This document shows, piece after piece, positions 9,723 through 50,182 of a stretch of DNA of 64,000 nt (within the stretch, counting starts at the first letter, position 1; every line of letters begins with the position of its first letter). The notes beneath the pieces are model-generated. The model was given only the letters and a program-made list of their open reading frames with translations. It had not been told where the DNA came from and ran no database searches. The position numbers were made by a program, and so were the translations under genes. This DNA is from Candidatus Magasanikiibacteriota bacterium. GTDB taxonomy: Bacteria > Patescibacteriota > Patescibacteriia > Magasanikbacterales > GWA2-37-8. The stretch spans positions 93,144 through 157,143 of the forward strand of contig JAUSEN010000009.1 of NCBI GenBank assembly GCA_030650025.1, written 5' to 3'.

Positions 9723-9743
9723 TAGCTCCTGGGGTAGGAATTG
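9723..9743. repeat. 21-bp direct duplication of the tRNA-Asn 3' end (att-like remnant)
   Basis: tagctcctggggtaggaattg is repeated at 9793..9813 inside the tRNA. The intervening 50 nt form hairpins but not a tRNA. Confidence 0.7.
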
Positions 9744-9795
9744 CCATGAACCACAAAGGGTTCATGGTCCGCCTTTGGCGGAAACCTATCCGTAG

Positions 9796-9867
9796 CTCCT
9801 GGGGTAGGAATTGAACCTACAGTAACTGCATTAACAGTGCAGCGTTTTACCATTAAACTACCCAGGA
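9796..9867 (-). tRNA. tRNA-Asn (anticodon GTT)
   Basis: It folds as TCCTGGG/CCCAGGA acceptor, D-arm GTTT-AATGGTA-AAAC, anticodon arm CTGCA-CTGTTAA-TGCAG and T-arm GTAGG-TTCAATT-CCTAC. The CCA end is not encoded. Confidence 0.85.
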
Positions 9868-29343: not shown

Positions 29344-29372
29344 GTAGAGACGCCCCGCCGGGGCGTCTCTAC
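29344..29372 (+). terminator. 13-bp perfect hairpin gtagagacgcccc-gcc-ggggcgtctctac
   Basis: It lies immediately after the stop of the preceding ORF. Confidence 0.55.
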
Positions 29373-30758: not shown

Positions 30759-30769
30759 ATTATTTTTTT

Positions 30770-30797
30770 GTAGGGGGCGCATATATGCGCCCCCTAC
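30770..30797 (+). terminator. perfect palindrome gtagggggcgcatatatgcgccccctac (GTAGGG...CCCTAC family) after tuf
   Basis: A 12-bp G/C-rich stem followed by AAAATTTTG. Confidence 0.7.
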
Positions 30798-30822
30798 AAA
30801 ATTTTGTTCTTTTAAGACTAAC

Positions 30823-46933: not shown

Positions 46934-46954
46934 AATTAAAAAAATTGGCTAAAA

Positions 46955-47611
46955 TTAGCCAATTTTTTTATTCCACCAAACCAGACCGGTTGCCAACAGC
47001 ATTCCCCCAAGCGCTCCCAGTATCAAATCCTTCATCGTGTCCCACACGCTGGGTTGAAAGACAGTGCCGCGCAGAGTGTCGCTCAAAAATTCGTAGCCTT
47101 CCCAAAGCACTGTCACAGCCATTACACTTACTAAAATTATTAAAATTCGGACCAGAGAATTTTTTATTTCCAATAATTTTGCTCGCTCTAGTATTTTTAT
47201 AAAAATAAACATTGCCATGGCCACGCTCGCGCCGCCAAAAAAATGTAGTGGTGTATCTAGTTGATAATACAGAGCCCACTCTGGCCACAGGCCATAAACC
47301 GTGGTGCTCAAGATATAAATAAACCAAGGCGGCAAAGTTATTAAAAATAATTCCCGCCAATAAATAAAGGGCGCAATTTTTATGAGGGGAGTAAACCGCG
47401 CCACTGTTTTGCCATTTTGCTCCACTGTTTCTAAAAATACGCTAAGCGGCCTAGTCCAGAGCGAGCCTTTAGGGAAAAATTTTTCTTCGTGTGTTTTATC
47501 TTGAAGTGATTTGTATAGCACGACGTCTTCTCCGGTCGCTTCCACTTTCCCAACCCCAATCACCTCACAGCGCCCGCCCTTAAAGTGTTGGTAAATTCCC
47601 AGTTGCATTGG
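46955..47611 (-). CDS. DUF-type N-terminal domain fused to a membrane domain, hypothetical
   Basis: MQLGIYQHFKGGRCEVIGVG... The track start at 47692 overlaps hicA, so the internal Met at 47611 is more likely. Confidence 0.45.
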   Translation of the reverse strand, partial: PMQLGIYQHFKGGRCEVIGVGKVEATGEDVVLYKSLQDKTHEEKFFPKGSLWTRPLSVFLETVEQNGKTVARFTPLIKIAPFIYWRELFLITLPPWFIYILSTTVYGLWPEWALYYQLDTPLHFFGGASVAMAMFIFIKILERAKLLEIKNSLVRILIILVSVMAVTVLWEGYEFLSDTLRGTVFQPSVWDTMKDLILGALGGMLLATGLVWWNKKIG

Positions 47612-47615
47612 TTGT

Positions 47616-47837
47616 TTATAATTTATTAAATTCTTCAATATCCAGACGCATTTCTTTGATAAGTTTGTGCAAGAGGCCAGTCGGAATATCACGTGAATGT
47701 TTGTGAGGCACTGGAATCGTGATTTGTTTTAGCGGATGAAATTAAATAGTATGTTTATTTTTGCGAATTGGAATGTAGCCAGCGCGCTGAATTTTTTTGG
47801 CGAATTCAGTATAGCGTATAGGTTTTAATTTAGGCAA
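47616..47837 (-). pseudogene. hicA: hicA toxin gene interrupted by an in-frame TAA stop at codon 32
   Basis: The N-terminal part (M)PKLKPIRYTEFAKKIQRAGYIPIRKNKHTI matches the HicA N-terminus. After the TAA at 47742-47744 the same frame continues as FHPLKQITIPVPHKHSRDIPTGLLHKLIKEMRLDIEEFNKL, matching the HicA C-terminus. The TTG start overlaps the hicB stop. Confidence 0.65.
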
Positions 47838-48084
47838 AATCCGGTATGCGCACGAAAGAAAATTTTCGAGCTATAGTAGGGGTAATGGTTTCTTGCGGCA
47901 GTGTCTGATTAAAATCTTTAATTACCTCAAGGCACTCTTTAATCGCCGCATAGATATTTTTGTGTGCTACAGTGAGGGTTTTACCATATACCGCACAACC
48001 AGGTATGGCCGGCACGGCAGCAATATAACCGCCTTTTTTATCCCATTCGTACGTTATATAATATTGGTTAGTAGAAGGCTTCAT
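47830..48084 (-). CDS. hicB: HicB-family antitoxin
   Basis: YEWDKKGGYIAAVPAIPGCAVYGKTLTVAHKNIYAAIKECLEV is a typical HicB/UPF0150 sequence. Confidence 0.8.
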   Translation of the reverse strand: MKPSTNQYYITYEWDKKGGYIAAVPAIPGCAVYGKTLTVAHKNIYAAIKECLEVIKDFNQTLPQETITPTIARKFSFVRIPDFA

Positions 48085-48092
48085 ATATCAGC

Positions 48093-48153
48093 AGTATAGA
48101 TAAAAAATATTTGCTTGTCAAATCAAAAATTTGACATGTCAAAAATTTGACAT
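48093..48153 (-). promoter_or_regulatory. hicB promoter TTGACA-17-TATACT with two copies of the operator palindrome ATGTCAAA-N2-TTTGACAT
   Basis: Exact hexamers. The direct repeat caaaaatttgacat occurs twice (48124..48137 and 48140..48153), forming overlapping inverted repeats. Confidence 0.65.
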
Positions 48154-48164
48154 TTTCCTCGTTG

Positions 48165-48248
48165 TGCCGCGGGAGAGAATCGAACTCTCATGACCTTGCG
48201 GTCGCTGGATTTTGAGTCCAGTTCGTCTACCAGTTCCGACACCGCGGC
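48165..48248 (-). tRNA. tRNA-Leu (anticodon CAA)
   Basis: It folds as GCCGCGG/CCGCGGC acceptor, a 3-bp D stem, anticodon arm CTGGA-CTCAAAA-TCCAG, a long variable arm GACCGCAAGGTC and T-arm GAGAG-TTCGATT-CTCTC. The discriminator is A. Confidence 0.85.
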
Positions 48249-48439
48249 CTAAAAACTAGTTTAAATTATAGCAAATCTTCGCTTCTTGTCAACCCTGCAC
48301 CAAGCCCTGTCACATATTTTTAATTTAAAAAAAATTTAGCCGTTAGGCAGTGTTGCTTTATTTGTTTTGTTATAAATAAAATTTAATTTAGGATTTGGTG
48401 CAGGGTCAATCCTGTGATATAATAATGACAGATACAGTT

Positions 48440-49210
48440 ATGTCTGTCATTATTTCGGTCGTCAACCAAAAAGGCGGGGTGGGTAAAACCACCACTGCCG
48501 TAAACCTGGCCGCGGCGCTTTCTGAAGCGGGCAAATTTGTGTTACTCGTTGACCTTGACCCGCAAGGCAACGCTTCTTCCGGTCTTGGCCTTAAACCCGA
48601 AGGGGTTATCAAGAGTTTGTATCACGCCATCATGGGTAGCCAACGGCTCCACGATGTAGTGCAAAATACGCCACACGCCGGCCTCCGTCTCGCGCCCGGC
48701 ACGCCGGATTTGGCTGGAGCCAACGTGGAGTTAGTAAATATGGAGGGGCGGGAGGGGAAATTAGCGGACATTTTAAGCGAAGTAAAACACGCTTACGATT
48801 ATATTATTATAGATTCTCCGCCATCGCTTGGCCTCCTCACCTTGAATGGCCTGGTCGCGGCCGACCATTTACTTATTCCCGTTCAAGCCGAGTATTACGC
48901 GCTCGAAGGCCTCGGCCAACTGCTTAAAACTATCGAACTTGTGCGCGCCAATTTAAAACCTAATTTAAAAGTTTTGGGCGCTGTCTTAACCATGTTTGAC
49001 GCTCGTACCAAACTCTCGACCGAAGTTATGCACGAGCTATATAAATATTTTCCTAATAATATTTTTCGTTCGGTTATTCCGCGCGCTGTGCGTTTGGCCG
49101 AAGCCCCGAGTTTTGGCCAGAGTATTTTTCATTACGAACCAGGCGGCAAAGGCGCCCGCGCCTACGAAAAATTGGGAAGAGAATTATTAGAGTATTTTGA
49201 AAGATCATAA
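48440..49210 (+). CDS. parA: chromosome partitioning ATPase ParA/Soj
   Basis: Deviant Walker A NQKGGVGKTTTAVN. The probable start is MSVIISV. The start lies inside the 12-bp inverted repeat aataatgacaga...tctgtcattatt (48421..48454). Confidence 0.9.
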   Translation: MSVIISVVNQKGGVGKTTTAVNLAAALSEAGKFVLLVDLDPQGNASSGLGLKPEGVIKSLYHAIMGSQRLHDVVQNTPHAGLRLAPGTPDLAGANVELVNMEGREGKLADILSEVKHAYDYIIIDSPPSLGLLTLNGLVAADHLLIPVQAEYYALEGLGQLLKTIELVRANLKPNLKVLGAVLTMFDARTKLSTEVMHELYKYFPNNIFRSVIPRAVRLAEAPSFGQSIFHYEPGGKGARAYEKLGRELLEYFERS

Positions 49211-49213
49211 TAG

Positions 49214-49312
49214 CTGGCAAAGCTAGTGTTTCCGAGCGGGTTTGACCCGCCCAGGGCGGGTCACCCCGAGGCCTCGCGGCCGAGGAAAGCGAGGAGACGC
49301 TAGCTTTGCCAG
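49214..49312. repeat. 99-nt GC-rich element with 13-bp terminal inverted repeats ctggcaaagctag...ctagctttgccag, between parA and parB
   Basis: The interior is about 70% GC with nested hairpins (gacccgcc-cag-ggcgggtc). It is unlike canonical parS. Confidence 0.65.
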
Positions 49313-49330
49313 ATTAATAAAAAAAATTTT

Positions 49331-50182
49331 ATGCCTCTAGGAAAAGGGCTTGGCGCCTTGATTGGCCCGAGTAGCCGCAAAACAACTGTGTTACAAACCG
49401 GTTCGGGCGCCGCGGGTCTGGATAAATTGTGGTTAGTGCCGCTTAGCGAAATCACCGCGAATCCAAATCAACCCCGCAAAAACTTCGCTCCCGCCGAACT
49501 CGAGGAATTAGCCGCGTCTATCAAAGAACACGGCATACTTCAGCCGCTTTTAGTTTCCGAAAAATCCGATGGCGGTTATGAGTTAATTGCCGGCGAGCGG
49601 CGTTTGCGCGCGGCTCGGCGCGCTGGCCTCACCAGTGTCCCCGTTATTGTAAAAAAATATTCAGACGAAACCAAACTCTCCATTTCTTTAATCGAGAATA
49701 TCCAGCGGGCCGATTTAAATCCAATCGAAGAAGCTTTTGCTTACAAGCGCTTGATAGAAGAATTTGGTTTGACCCAAGAAGCGGTGGCGAGTAAAGTCGG
49801 CAAAAGTCGCCCGTCGGTTGCTAACATGATCCGGTTGCTGGAACTGCCGAACGAAGTTCAGCAAGCTTTGATTGACGGCAAAATTTCCACGGGTCAGGCC
49901 CGGGCGGTTTTAAGTATTGGCGACAAAAAAGCCCAGCTCGATATTTTAGCCTCCATGCTCGGCAGTAAAATTACGGTGCGCGAGTTAGAGAGAACCGCGA
50001 CCGCCCAAAATCCCAGCCGGGCGCGCGGGCGGGATCCGAACCTTAATTATCTAGAAGAAAAACTTCGCGCCGCGCTTGGCACCAAAGTAACCATCTCACA
50101 AAAAGGCGAGCGCGGGGCTGTTGTCATCGATTATTTTTCTAAAGAAGAGCTGGCCCGCATCATTAAAAAAATTGCTCCCTAA
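49331..50182 (+). CDS. parB: chromosome partitioning protein ParB/Spo0J
   Basis: ParB box GERRLRAARRAGL plus an HTH. Confidence 0.9.
   Translation: MPLGKGLGALIGPSSRKTTVLQTGSGAAGLDKLWLVPLSEITANPNQPRKNFAPAELEELAASIKEHGILQPLLVSEKSDGGYELIAGERRLRAARRAGLTSVPVIVKKYSDETKLSISLIENIQRADLNPIEEAFAYKRLIEEFGLTQEAVASKVGKSRPSVANMIRLLELPNEVQQALIDGKISTGQARAVLSIGDKKAQLDILASMLGSKITVRELERTATAQNPSRARGRDPNLNYLEEKLRAALGTKVTISQKGERGAVVIDYFSKEELARIIKKIAP

What the first reader, a model, noticed from the sequence alone, without database searches (positions are those of the whole stretch)
47616..48153. hicBA module with intact antitoxin, palindromic operator pair and a toxin gene broken by a single in-frame TAA
hicB is intact and preceded by a perfect TTGACA-17-TATACT promoter overlapping two copies of the inverted repeat ATGTCAAA-N2-TTTGACAT. 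This is the classic arrangement for an autoregulatory operator. hicA starts at a TTG overlapping the hicB stop and reads as a full-length HicA homologue except for a TAA at codon 32. After that stop the same frame continues for 41 more HicA-like codons. This is either a recently inactivated toxin, where the antitoxin alone may be retained as a regulator or an anti-addiction module, or a stop that is suppressed or recoded at low frequency. The next gene's annotated start overlaps the hicA tail, which is consistent with recent decay.
Basis: seen in the sequence. Interest (0 to 1): 0.55.

Follow-up and report, generated by a model that had tools for sequence, protein, structure and literature searches.

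The report
Toxin–antitoxin pair with a dead toxin gene
This is a small, already-described type of toxin–antitoxin gene pair (hicBA) in an uncultured groundwater-type bacterium whose toxin gene has recently been knocked out by a single stop codon, which is the usual way such modules decay and not a case of recoding or a special regulatory design.

Summary
The module is real and lies on the minus strand. An intact 84-aa hicB (48084..47830) overlaps by 8 nt a 73-codon hicA (47837..47616) that carries TAA at codon 32 (47744..47742).

- **Toxin.** Every other copy in which codon 32 is preserved, from 42 distinct modules in Patescibacteria (60 loci), has Tyr (TAT/TAC) there and an ATG start. The window has TAA and TTG. 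The rest of the ORF shows no excess divergence, so this is a recent toxin pseudogene.
- **Recoding.** TAA ends 50 of 61 long ORFs in the window, is followed by T here, and is shared by no relative, so recoding is unsupported.
- **Promoter.** TTGACA-17-TATACT is present, and the position of its −10 hexamer just before the hicB ATG recurs across the family.
- **Operator.** The "operator pair" is one perfect 8-N2-8 palindrome plus a variant with N5 spacing. Together they form a perfect 1.9-copy tandem repeat of a 16-bp unit. HicB has only the β-β-β-α-β toxin-binding fold and no DNA-binding domain (Gerdes 2024 "Class 2" hicBA). None of 35 related upstream regions has this motif, so the autoregulatory-operator reading is unsupported.
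- **Next gene.** It starts at ATG 47608 and does not overlap hicA.

Side observation: this hicBA family recurrently sits next to tRNA-Leu genes.

The parts
48164..48248 (-). tRNA-Leu(CAA), immediately upstream of the module. It has its own 12/12 promoter at 48292..48265.
   Evidence: ARAGORN, Rfam tRNA 55.3 bits, promoter scan.
48116..48153 (.). Array of four TGTCAAA/TTTGACA half-sites. It comprises a perfect palindrome ATGTCAAA-N2-TTTGACAT (48136-48153) and TGTCAAAT-N5-ATTTGACA (48116-48136), and is equally a 16-bp tandem repeat of 1.9 copies (48123-48153). Function not established.
   Evidence: Absent from 35 related hicB upstream regions. Weak hairpins as RNA or DNA, z -2.1 and -2.8.
48093..48121 (-). 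hicB promoter: -35 TTGACA (48121..48116), 17-nt spacer, -10 TATACT (48098..48093). The -10 ends 8 nt before the hicB ATG and there is no Shine-Dalgarno motif, so the mRNA is probably leaderless or nearly so.
   Evidence: In 19 of 35 related upstream regions the best -10 ends exactly 6 nt before the ATG, and only 1 has an SD-like motif.
47830..48084 (-). hicB, an intact 84-aa antitoxin with the toxin-binding domain only (beta-beta-beta-alpha-beta) and no DNA-binding domain.
   Evidence: Pfam PF15919 27.4 bits, profile positions 1-59 of 123. NCBI MDO8626250.1 is named a HicB family antitoxin. All 20 invariant family residues are kept. AF2 model pLDDT 75. Foldseek to HicB N-terminal domains 6HPB, 6G26 and 6G1C, TMq 0.70-0.76.
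47616..47837 (-). hicA pseudogene of 73 sense-equivalent codons. It has a derived TTG start (47837..47835), premature TAA at codon 32 (47744..47742) replacing a Tyr found in all related copies, and the original stop at 47618..47616.
46955..47608 (-). Downstream gene (DUF1653 plus a membrane domain, 217 aa). It starts 7 nt after the hicA stop with no terminator or strong promoter between them, so it is probably co-transcribed from the hicB promoter (inference).
   Evidence: Pfam DUF1653 60.3 bits. Exact match to MDO8626249.1. Promoter/terminator scan.
46937..46970 (.). A 34-bp palindrome between the convergent asnS and DUF1653 genes. It is the likely bidirectional terminator that ends the hicB-hicA'-DUF1653 transcription unit (inference).
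   Evidence: Palindrome scan and ORF map.

Best explanation
This is a chromosomal 'Class 2' hicBA type II toxin-antitoxin cassette in a Candidatus Magasanikbacteria (Patescibacteria) genome. The gene order is hicB then hicA, the genes overlap by 8 nt, and the small HicB lacks a DNA-binding domain. The cassette sits between tRNA-Leu(CAA) and a DUF1653 gene.

The toxin gene has been inactivated recently by one third-position transversion, Tyr32 TAT/TAC to TAA. This truncates HicA after 31 residues, leaving roughly helix 1 and the first strand, and removes the PHKH motif and everything after it. A second change turns the start codon found in the relatives (ATG) into the weaker TTG; the same base change makes HicB Tyr82 into Phe.

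hicB, its promoter and the probably leaderless transcript architecture are intact. The locus therefore now expresses antitoxin only. This is the first step of the usual two-step decay of chromosomal TA modules, in which the toxin is lost first and the antitoxin later.

The promoter may be kept in service because it probably also transcribes the downstream DUF1653 gene (inference). The palindromic array upstream of and over the -35 is a locus-specific 16-bp tandem duplication of a near-palindromic, -35-like unit. It is not a conserved HicB operator.

Inferred: loss of toxicity, recency, co-transcription, and the origin of the repeat by duplication.
For: - Translation shows a single in-frame TAA, with the frame open on both sides.
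- The repaired product scores 31.8 bits on PF07927. The family profile hits the HicA-fold structure 1WHZ at E = 3.6e-7 across residues 10-73, spanning the stop.
- There are 26 intact 73-aa homologues at 68-77% identity, all with Tyr32. Across 60 further loci (42 distinct modules including the window), codon 32 is TAT or TAC in every copy that preserves it. The start codon is ATG in every copy aligned from codon 1 except the L040/L041 pair, which has ACG.
- Apart from the stop, the window's HicA deviates at 1 of 33 conserved columns (L16I). Intact members deviate at 0-3. Its mean identity to the family is 72.5%, against 69.4% among the others.
- TAA terminates 50 of 61 long ORFs in the window, 17 of them as TAAT.
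- An independent Logan assembly of run SRR13727527 is identical over 3,363 bp, including the TAA and the TTG.
- The NCBI protein accessions for DUF1653 and HicB are consecutive (MDO8626249 and MDO8626250), so no HicA protein was called.
- HicB is the N-terminal fold only. This matches Class 2 of Gerdes 2024, PMC10865869.
- Other decayed copies exist in the family. L034 has a nonsense codon at position 23 with hicB intact. L040/41 have lost the ATG. L063 has both genes frameshifted. L016 is a C-terminal remnant.
- Toxin-first decay is the common pattern in the literature (PMC13617665: toxin only 185, both 186, antitoxin only 8. See also PMC7167474).
Against: - No reads were available, so a consensus error or a minor allele cannot be excluded. 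The Logan contig may come from the same sample as the MAG.
- No close relative exists in the searched collections. The nearest HicB is 69% identical and the nearest DUF1653 protein is 44-60% identical. 'Recent' therefore rests only on the lack of further decay.
- Toxicity of this family has never been tested; Class 2 is uncharacterised.
- The palindromic array is statistically unusual and partly overlaps the -35, and its function remains unexplained.
Confidence: 0.82

Rival explanations
1. The TAA is not fixed in the organism. It is an assembly or sequencing error, or a minor allele that reached the MAG consensus, and the population carries an intact, functional hicA.
For: The difference from a sense codon is a single base. 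The sequence is a metagenome-assembled genome. Only one other contig carries this exact locus, and it may derive from the same sample.
Against: A different assembler (Logan) gives the identical sequence over 3.4 kb. A second, independent attenuating change (start ATG->TTG) sits in the same gene, which fits real selection against the toxin. Substitution errors are rare in consensus from short-read assemblies (general knowledge).
Confidence: 0.1
2. The TAA is a programmed leaky or recoded stop that yields a low, tunable level of full-length toxin.
For: The frame stays open and HicA-like for 41 codons after the stop, and the conserved residues downstream are kept.
Against: No other copy of the family has a stop at this codon; all that preserve it have Tyr. 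TAA is the dominant genuine stop in the window, at 50 of 61 ORFs. The tetranucleotide TAA-T is the strongest termination context known in E. coli (established knowledge; Poole et al. 1995, recalled, not re-read). No suppressor tRNA lies in the window. The downstream conservation is equally explained by recency.
Confidence: 0.03
3. The palindromic array 48116-48153 is a working operator through which HicB (alone or with HicA), or another repressor, controls the hicB promoter.
For: Four identical 7-nt half-sites lie within 38 bp and one overlaps the -35. The chance expectation is about 0. Classical HicB proteins do repress through palindromes at their promoters (PMC10865869).
Against: This HicB has no HTH or RHH domain; it has the 84-aa beta-beta-beta-alpha-beta fold only. 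None of 35 distinct related hicB upstream regions has this or any shared palindrome, although the promoter position is conserved. The array is a perfect 16-bp tandem duplication, a simple mutational origin. The two inverted repeats have different spacings (N2 and N5). No other copy of the motif occurs in 64 kb.
Confidence: 0.1
4. The two AU-rich hairpins formed by the array serve as the 3' processing or termination signal of the upstream tRNA-Leu transcript.
For: The array starts 11 nt after the tRNA 3' end. It folds into two adjacent hairpins with MFE -14.4 kcal/mol against -9.3 +/- 2.5 for shuffles, and a U-rich stretch follows.
Against: The stems have only 2 G-C pairs each, and the terminator scan did not call them. 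The z-score is only -2.1. Other tRNA-Leu-hicB junctions in the family lack such hairpins.
Confidence: 0.1

Closest known systems
Class 2 hicBA operons (Gerdes 2024, mBio 15:e03293-23; PMC10865869)
   Same: Gene order is hicB then hicA and the genes overlap (8 nt). HicB is within 60-90 aa (here 84) with the beta-beta-beta-alpha-beta partial RNase H fold and no DNA-binding domain. HicA is within 60-85 aa (here 73 codons).
   Different: The toxin gene here is broken by a nonsense codon and has a TTG start. The family is a Patescibacteria-specific branch, only distantly similar to characterised HicA and HicB (about 20-25% identity to PDB HicB chains).
Classical HicAB/HicBA systems with solved structures (E. 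coli HicAB 6HPB, B. pseudomallei 6G26, Y. pestis HicA3B3 4P78, S. pneumoniae HicBA 5YRZ)
   Same: The HicB N-terminal fold matches (Foldseek TMq 0.70-0.76 for the three proteobacterial systems and 0.67 for 5YRZ). The HicA profile matches the founding HicA-fold structure 1WHZ, and the invariant His29 aligns with the His of its GGH motif.
   Different: Those HicB proteins carry a C-terminal HTH or RHH domain and repress their own promoters through palindromic operators. This one has no such domain.
Toxin-first decay of chromosomal TA modules (ccdO157 in E. coli, Mine et al. 2009; Photorhabdus TA erosion, Belot et al. 2026, PMC13617665)
   Same: The toxin is inactivated by a point or nonsense mutation while the antitoxin stays intact. 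The module sits in an islet between core genes with no mobile-element genes nearby.
   Different: A different TA family and phylum. Here there are no sister genomes with which to date the event.

Membership tests
HicA toxin (Pfam PF07927) | Sequence match above the Pfam gathering score | tested here: met
   The conceptual read-through product scores 31.8 bits against a cut-off of 27, over residues 11-63. The N half alone gives no hit and the C half 19.3 bits. The family profile against PDB 1WHZ gives E = 3.6e-7.
HicA toxin (Pfam PF07927) | Conserved histidine at the 'G-S-H' position of strand 1 | tested here: met
   His29 is invariant in the 27-sequence alignment and aligns with the His of GGH in 1WHZ. 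The catalytic role is taken from knowledge of other HicA proteins and was not tested.
HicA toxin (Pfam PF07927) | Uninterrupted ORF giving the whole alpha-beta-beta-beta-alpha domain | tested here: not met
   TAA at codon 32, so the gene is a pseudogene of the family and not a functional member.
HicA toxin (Pfam PF07927) | RNase activity and growth inhibition neutralised by HicB | not testable with these tools
   Needs kill/rescue assays. Class 2 members have never been tested.
HicB antitoxin (Pfam PF15919) | Sequence match above the gathering score | tested here: met
   27.4 bits against a cut-off of 27 (marginal), profile positions 1-59 of 123. The family profile against B. pseudomallei HicB 6G1C gives E = 5e-4. 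NCBI names it a HicB family antitoxin.
HicB antitoxin (Pfam PF15919) | Partial RNase H fold, beta-beta-beta-alpha-beta | tested here: met
   The AF2 model has strands 7-15, 19-23 and 31-34, helix 37-57 and strand 77-79 (the last at low confidence), with pLDDT 75. The top Foldseek hits are all HicB chains.
Classical (Class 3/4) autoregulated HicAB | C-terminal HTH or RHH DNA-binding domain on HicB | tested here: not met
   The protein ends at residue 84 after strand 4. TMt is 0.46 against full-length HicB but 0.69 against the isolated N-terminal domain 6G1C.
Classical (Class 3/4) autoregulated HicAB | Palindromic operator at the promoter, conserved among relatives | tested here: not met
   Palindromes are present here but absent from 35 distinct related upstream regions.
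Class 2 hicBA (Gerdes 2024) | hicB-hicA order, closely linked or overlapping genes, HicB of 60-90 aa without a DNA-binding domain, HicA of 60-85 aa | tested here: met
   The definition was read.
Programmed stop-codon readthrough or recoding | Stop conserved at the same site in relatives, or the codon reassigned genome-wide | tested here: not met
   Codon 32 is TAT or TAC in every related copy that preserves it. TAA ends 50 of 61 long ORFs in the window.

The most novel reading that the evidence does not exclude
The Patescibacteria branch of DBD-less Class 2 hicBA to which this locus belongs may be a self-contained cassette that homes to the flanks of tRNA-Leu (and tmRNA) genes. It carries its own promoter placed so that the mRNA is leaderless. 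Ten of 42 distinct modules lie within 600 bp of a same-strand tRNA-Leu, with five different anticodons, on either side of the tRNA, and with no integrase seen nearby. In this locus the duplicated palindromes at the tRNA-hicB junction could be part of that targeting, or a binding site for a regulator that is not HicB. That would give a first handle on how DBD-less hicAB modules are placed and controlled.
Probability: 0.15. Interest if true: 0.5.

Novelty: new member of a known kind. Interest (0 to 1): 0.15.

Why it matters
In itself it matters little. It is one more example of toxin-first erosion of a chromosomal toxin–antitoxin module, here in a reduced-genome Patescibacteria lineage. The public annotation already names the antitoxin and calls no HicA protein.

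It is useful as a clean negative. An in-frame TAA with good homology on both sides should not be read as recoding when the codon replaces a residue conserved in all relatives and TAA is the genome's main stop. Palindromes at a TA promoter should not be called an autoregulatory operator when the antitoxin has no DNA-binding domain.

The family-level by-products could be worth a dedicated survey. These are the recurrent tRNA-Leu/tmRNA adjacency and a −10 hexamer fixed 6 nt before the hicB start. The regulation and chromosomal placement of Class 1/2 hicAB modules are acknowledged open questions (PMC10865869).

Tried and rejected
- **Orthologous loci in close relatives.** None exist in the collections. 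The nearest HicB is 69% identical. The nearest DUF1653 neighbour is 44–60% identical. The exact-protein look-up found only one Logan contig, identical to the window.
- **parS hypothesis.** The adjacent parAB suggested the palindromes might be ParB sites. They do not resemble canonical parS, and they occur only once. The window has no canonical parS at ≤3 mismatches, so the idea is neither supported nor strictly excluded. I rate it unlikely.
- **Integration scar.** The last 21 nt of tRNA-Leu are not repeated anywhere in 64 kb. By eye, no integrase-like ORF appears in the flanks of ten related tRNA-Leu-linked loci (not Pfam-tested).
- **Intrinsic terminator for tRNA-Leu.** The hairpins are weak and AU-rich and were not called by the scan.
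- **Known RNA families** in 44–52 kb: only the tRNA.
- **Phage origin.** One distant hit (41% identity) in IMG/VR.
- **NCBIfam and PADLOC.** No meaningful hits for either protein.
- **Reinitiation after the stop.** The only in-frame start is a GTG at codon 43, with no SD. It would give a 31-aa tail fragment, which I judge not meaningful.

Full report
**What is in the sequence**

The feature lies on the minus strand. In the 5′→3′ direction of that strand, the parts are:

| Part | Coordinates | Notes |
|---|---|---|
| tRNA-Leu(CAA) | 48248..48164 | Own perfect promoter at 48292..48265 |
| AT-rich array of TGTCAAA/TTTGACA half-sites | 48153..48116 | See "The palindromes" below |
| Promoter | −35 48121..48116; −10 48098..48093 | TTGACA, 17-nt spacer, TATACT |
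| hicB | 48084..47830 | 84 aa |
| hicA | TTG 47837 to stop 47618..47616 | Overlaps the hicB stop by 8 nt; 74 codons including the stop |
| DUF1653/membrane gene | ATG 47608 to 46955 | Starts 7 nt after the hicA stop |
| 34-bp palindrome | 46937–46970 | Shared with the convergent asnS gene |

Translating 47837..47616 gives MPKLKPIRYTEFAKKIQRAGYIPIRKNKHTI\*FHPLKQITIPVPHKHSRDIPTGLLHKLIKEMRLDIEEFNKL\*.

**Family assignment**

- **HicB.** It reaches the Pfam HicB_lk_antitox threshold only just (27.4 bits against 27), and only over profile positions 1–59 of 123.
- **HicA.** With the stop bridged, it passes HicA_toxin (31.8 bits against 27). The N half alone gives nothing and the C half 19.3 bits.
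- **HicA against solved structures.** A profile of 26 homologues plus the window matches the founding HicA-fold structure 1WHZ at E = 3.6e-7 over residues 10–73, across the stop.
- **HicB against solved structures.** The HicB profile matches B. pseudomallei HicB (6G1C, 6G1N) over the N-terminal domain only.
- **HicB model.** An AlphaFold2 model (pLDDT 75) has strands 7–15, 19–23 and 31–34, helix 37–57 and a low-confidence strand 77–79.
- **Fold comparison.** The best Foldseek matches are all HicB chains (6U0I, 6HPB, 6G26, 6G1C, 4P78). TM-score normalised to the target is about 0.46 for full-length HicB and 0.69 for the isolated N-terminal domain.

The protein is therefore the toxin-binding domain alone, with no HTH or RHH domain. 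This matches the "Class 2" hicBA of Gerdes 2024: hicB-hicA order, overlapping genes, HicB of 60–90 aa without a DNA-binding domain, and HicA of 60–85 aa. That paper says this class has never been tested experimentally and that its regulation is an open question.

**Source organism**

HicB, the DUF1653 protein, AsnRS and ParB are exact matches to consecutive NCBI proteins MDO8626248–MDO8626252. They come from a 184,627-bp contig of a Candidatus Magasanikbacteria MAG. The DUF1653 protein and HicB have adjacent accession numbers, so no HicA protein was called there.

**The stop codon**

- A search with the bridged HicA found 26 intact 73-aa homologues at 68–77% identity, all with Tyr at position 32.
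- Scans of genome and metagenome contigs added 58 loci. Five further loci of related modules came from exact-protein look-ups. All named ones are Patescibacteria, apart from a distant 31%-identity hit in a Bacteroidota MAG (L017) that I excluded.
- By tblastn on the DNA, which does not depend on gene calling, codon 32 is TAT in 55 rows and TAC in 5. The only other values come from rows that are not aligned at that codon.
- The start codon is ATG in every copy aligned from codon 1, except the pair L040/L041, which has ACG.
- One of the two metagenome scan patterns required Tyr32. The other metagenome pattern and both genome-scan patterns did not, so the result is not circular.

TAA therefore replaces a Tyr codon that is constant across the family, by one third-position transversion. 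The TTG start is a second derived change. The same A→T substitution turns the near-C-terminal Tyr of HicB (PEYA) into Phe (PDFA).

Apart from the stop, the window's HicA keeps all 12 invariant residues of the alignment. It deviates at 1 of 33 columns that are at least 90% conserved (L16I), while intact members deviate at 0–3. It is on average 72.5% identical to the others, which are 69.4% identical among themselves. There is no sign of relaxed constraint, so the inactivation is recent or the base call is wrong.

**Is the stop real, and is it read as a stop?**

- A Logan assembly of run SRR13727527 carries the locus on a 3,457-bp contig. It is identical to the window over 3,363 bp, including both lesions. 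That excludes an assembler-specific artefact. It does not exclude a same-sample consensus issue, and reads could not be inspected.
- Among 61 non-overlapping long ORFs of the window, 50 end in TAA (17 of them as TAAT), 8 in TAG and 3 in TGA. TAA is thus this genome's normal stop.
- Here TAA is followed by T. That is the most efficient termination context in E. coli (from my own knowledge).
- The window's only tRNAs are Asn(GTT) and Leu(CAA).
- No relative has a stop at this codon.

I therefore reject recoding or programmed leakiness as anything more than a formal possibility.

**Decay elsewhere in the family**

| Locus | State |
|---|---|
| L034 | In-frame stop at hicA codon 23; hicB intact |
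| L040/L041 | hicA has lost its ATG; hicB intact |
| L063 | Frameshifts in both genes |
| L016 | Only the last ~36 codons of hicA remain; no hicB |

Including the window, about 5 of 42 distinct modules are damaged. The toxin is always affected, and the antitoxin only in the more advanced cases. This is the two-step, toxin-first erosion described for chromosomal TA systems. In Photorhabdus the counts were 185 toxin only, 186 both and 8 antitoxin only (PMC13617665). PMC7167474 reviews TA decay by deletion and nonsense mutation and cites Mine et al. 2009 on ccdO157.

**Promoter**

TTGACA-17-TATACT matches 11 of 12 positions. Its −10 ends 8 nt before the hicB ATG, and there is no Shine-Dalgarno motif.

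I examined 35 distinct hicB upstream regions (the window plus 34 relatives). In 19 of them the best −10 hexamer ends exactly 6 nt before the ATG. Only one has an SD-like motif. The promoter is therefore a conserved part of the cassette, and the transcript is probably leaderless (inference; no transcript data).

**The palindromes**

- There is one perfect ATGTCAAA-N2-TTTGACAT, at 48136–48153. It lies upstream of the −35.
- The other inverted repeat is TGTCAAAT-N5-ATTTGACA, at 48116–48136. One of its arms contains the −35.
- Tandem Repeats Finder describes the same bases as a 16-bp unit repeated 1.9 times with 100% matches (48123–48153). On the minus strand this reads ATGTCAAATTTTTGAC | ATGTCAAATTTTTGAT | TTGACA.
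- The arrangement is far from chance: 2 matches to TGTCAAA-N0-10-TTTGACA against 0.00 expected. Four of the window's 15 TGTCAAA heptamers sit here.

Four points argue against the operator reading:

- The antitoxin has no DNA-binding domain.
- None of the 35 related upstream regions (see "Promoter") contains this motif or any shared palindrome.
- The two repeats differ in spacing.
- A perfect tandem duplication is a simple mutational origin.

As RNA or DNA, the array folds into two weak AU-rich hairpins, with z-scores of −2.1 and −2.8. The terminator scan did not call them. I could not assign a function. I rate "HicB operator" at about 0.1.

**The downstream gene**

The mechanical ORF starts at GTG 47692, inside hicA. 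The Pfam DUF1653 match begins at the Met encoded at 47608, and the protein on record has exactly that start. There is no overlap, so that argument for decay falls.

No terminator or strong promoter separates hicA from this gene. It is therefore probably transcribed from the hicB promoter, which would give a reason to keep the promoter active (inference).

**Comparison with what is known, and verdict**

The locus works like, and is a decayed member of, the Class 2 hicBA group. It meets every structural criterion of that class. It fails only the requirement that hicA be an uninterrupted ORF.

It is not a classical autoregulated HicAB, because both the DNA-binding domain and a conserved operator were tested and not met.

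Nothing here is surprising to a TA specialist. I score interest at 0.15 and novelty as a new member of a known kind.

**By-product: adjacency to tRNA-Leu**

- Of 42 distinct modules, 10 have a tRNA-Leu gene on the same strand within 600 bp, and 8 within 150 bp. No other tRNA type is that close.
- The anticodons are CAA, TAA, CAG, TAG and GAG.
- The tRNA lies upstream of hicB in the window, L010, L029, L032, L040 and L051/52. It lies 5–12 nt after the hicA stop in L033, L036 and L054.
- In L039 hicB starts 8 nt after a tmRNA gene.
- By eye, flanking ORFs look like housekeeping genes (IF-2, ribosomal protein L19, a cupin-type sugar isomerase, an RNase J-like protein) and not integrases (not Pfam-tested).
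- The isomerase/tRNA-Leu(CAG) neighbourhood carries the cassette on different sides of the tRNA in L029 and in L036/L054.

This looks like a real preference for tRNA-Leu flanks. I did not establish its mechanism.

Noticed in passing
Window 48164-48248 and loci L010, L026, L028/L029, L032, L033, L036, L040/L041, L050-L052, L054 (also L014 and L016 at about 1.1 kb): Modules of this hicBA family sit next to same-strand tRNA-Leu genes far more often than chance would give. Ten of 42 distinct modules are within 600 bp and 8 within 150 bp. Five different anticodons are involved, the tRNA is either just upstream of hicB or 5-12 nt after the hicA stop, and no other tRNA type is that close. No integrase-like ORF was seen by eye in the flanks.
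   Followed up: partly
L039:881-1245: In this relative a complete tmRNA gene (Rfam, 110.6 bits) ends 8 nt before the hicB ATG, with no promoter in between. hicBA would then be transcribed with, or right after, the tmRNA.
   Followed up: partly
Window 48084-48098 and 35 related hicB upstream regions: The -10 hexamer ends exactly 6 nt before the hicB ATG in 19 of 35 distinct upstream regions (8 nt in the window), and only one has an SD-like motif. The family's mRNAs therefore look leaderless.
   Followed up: partly
Window 47835-47837: The hicA start is TTG here but ATG in every relative aligned from codon 1 except L040/L041. The same A->T change converts the HicB C-terminal PEYA motif to PDFA.
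   Followed up: yes
L034 (hicA codon 23), L040/L041 (hicA start), L063 (both genes), L016:206-313: Other copies of the family are decayed in different ways. L034 has a nonsense codon with hicB intact. L040/L041 have lost the ATG. L063 has frameshifts in both genes. L016 is a lone 3' remnant of hicA without hicB in a Tagabacteria MAG.
   Followed up: yes
Window 9723-9813 (minus strand), downstream of tRNA-Asn(GTT) 9795-9867: The last 21 nt around the tRNA-Asn 3' end (CAATTCCTACCCCAGGAGCTA, 9813..9793) are repeated exactly 70 nt further on (9743..9723), with two small hairpins in the 49 nt between. This looks like an att-type duplication left by an integrative element.
   Followed up: no
Window 48440-50182 (parA, parB) and the whole window: parA and parB are present, but no canonical parS (TGTTNCACGTGAAACA, up to 3 mismatches) occurs anywhere in the 64 kb; 1.3 matches were expected by chance.
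   Followed up: no
Window 30766-30801, 8121-8153, 29344-29372: These are very long perfect GC-rich palindromes (36, 33 and 29 bp). Two of them share outer arms TTGTAGGG...CCCTACAA, which suggests a repeated hairpin element or terminator family. The palindrome scan lists 56 entries with perfect arms of 8 nt or more (some nested), against 3-8 in shuffles.
   Followed up: no
L020, L026, L034, L044, L019 (about 40-70 nt upstream of the hicB promoter): Several relatives share an element resembling GGTTCGGACTAATTCAAGAATACTGCACCAC, preceded by a GC-rich hairpin. It sits at the position where other relatives have the tRNA-Leu 3' end (...GCACCAC followed by the same promoter). It may be a degenerate tRNA 3' fragment. 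ARAGORN and Rfam did not call it.
   Followed up: partly
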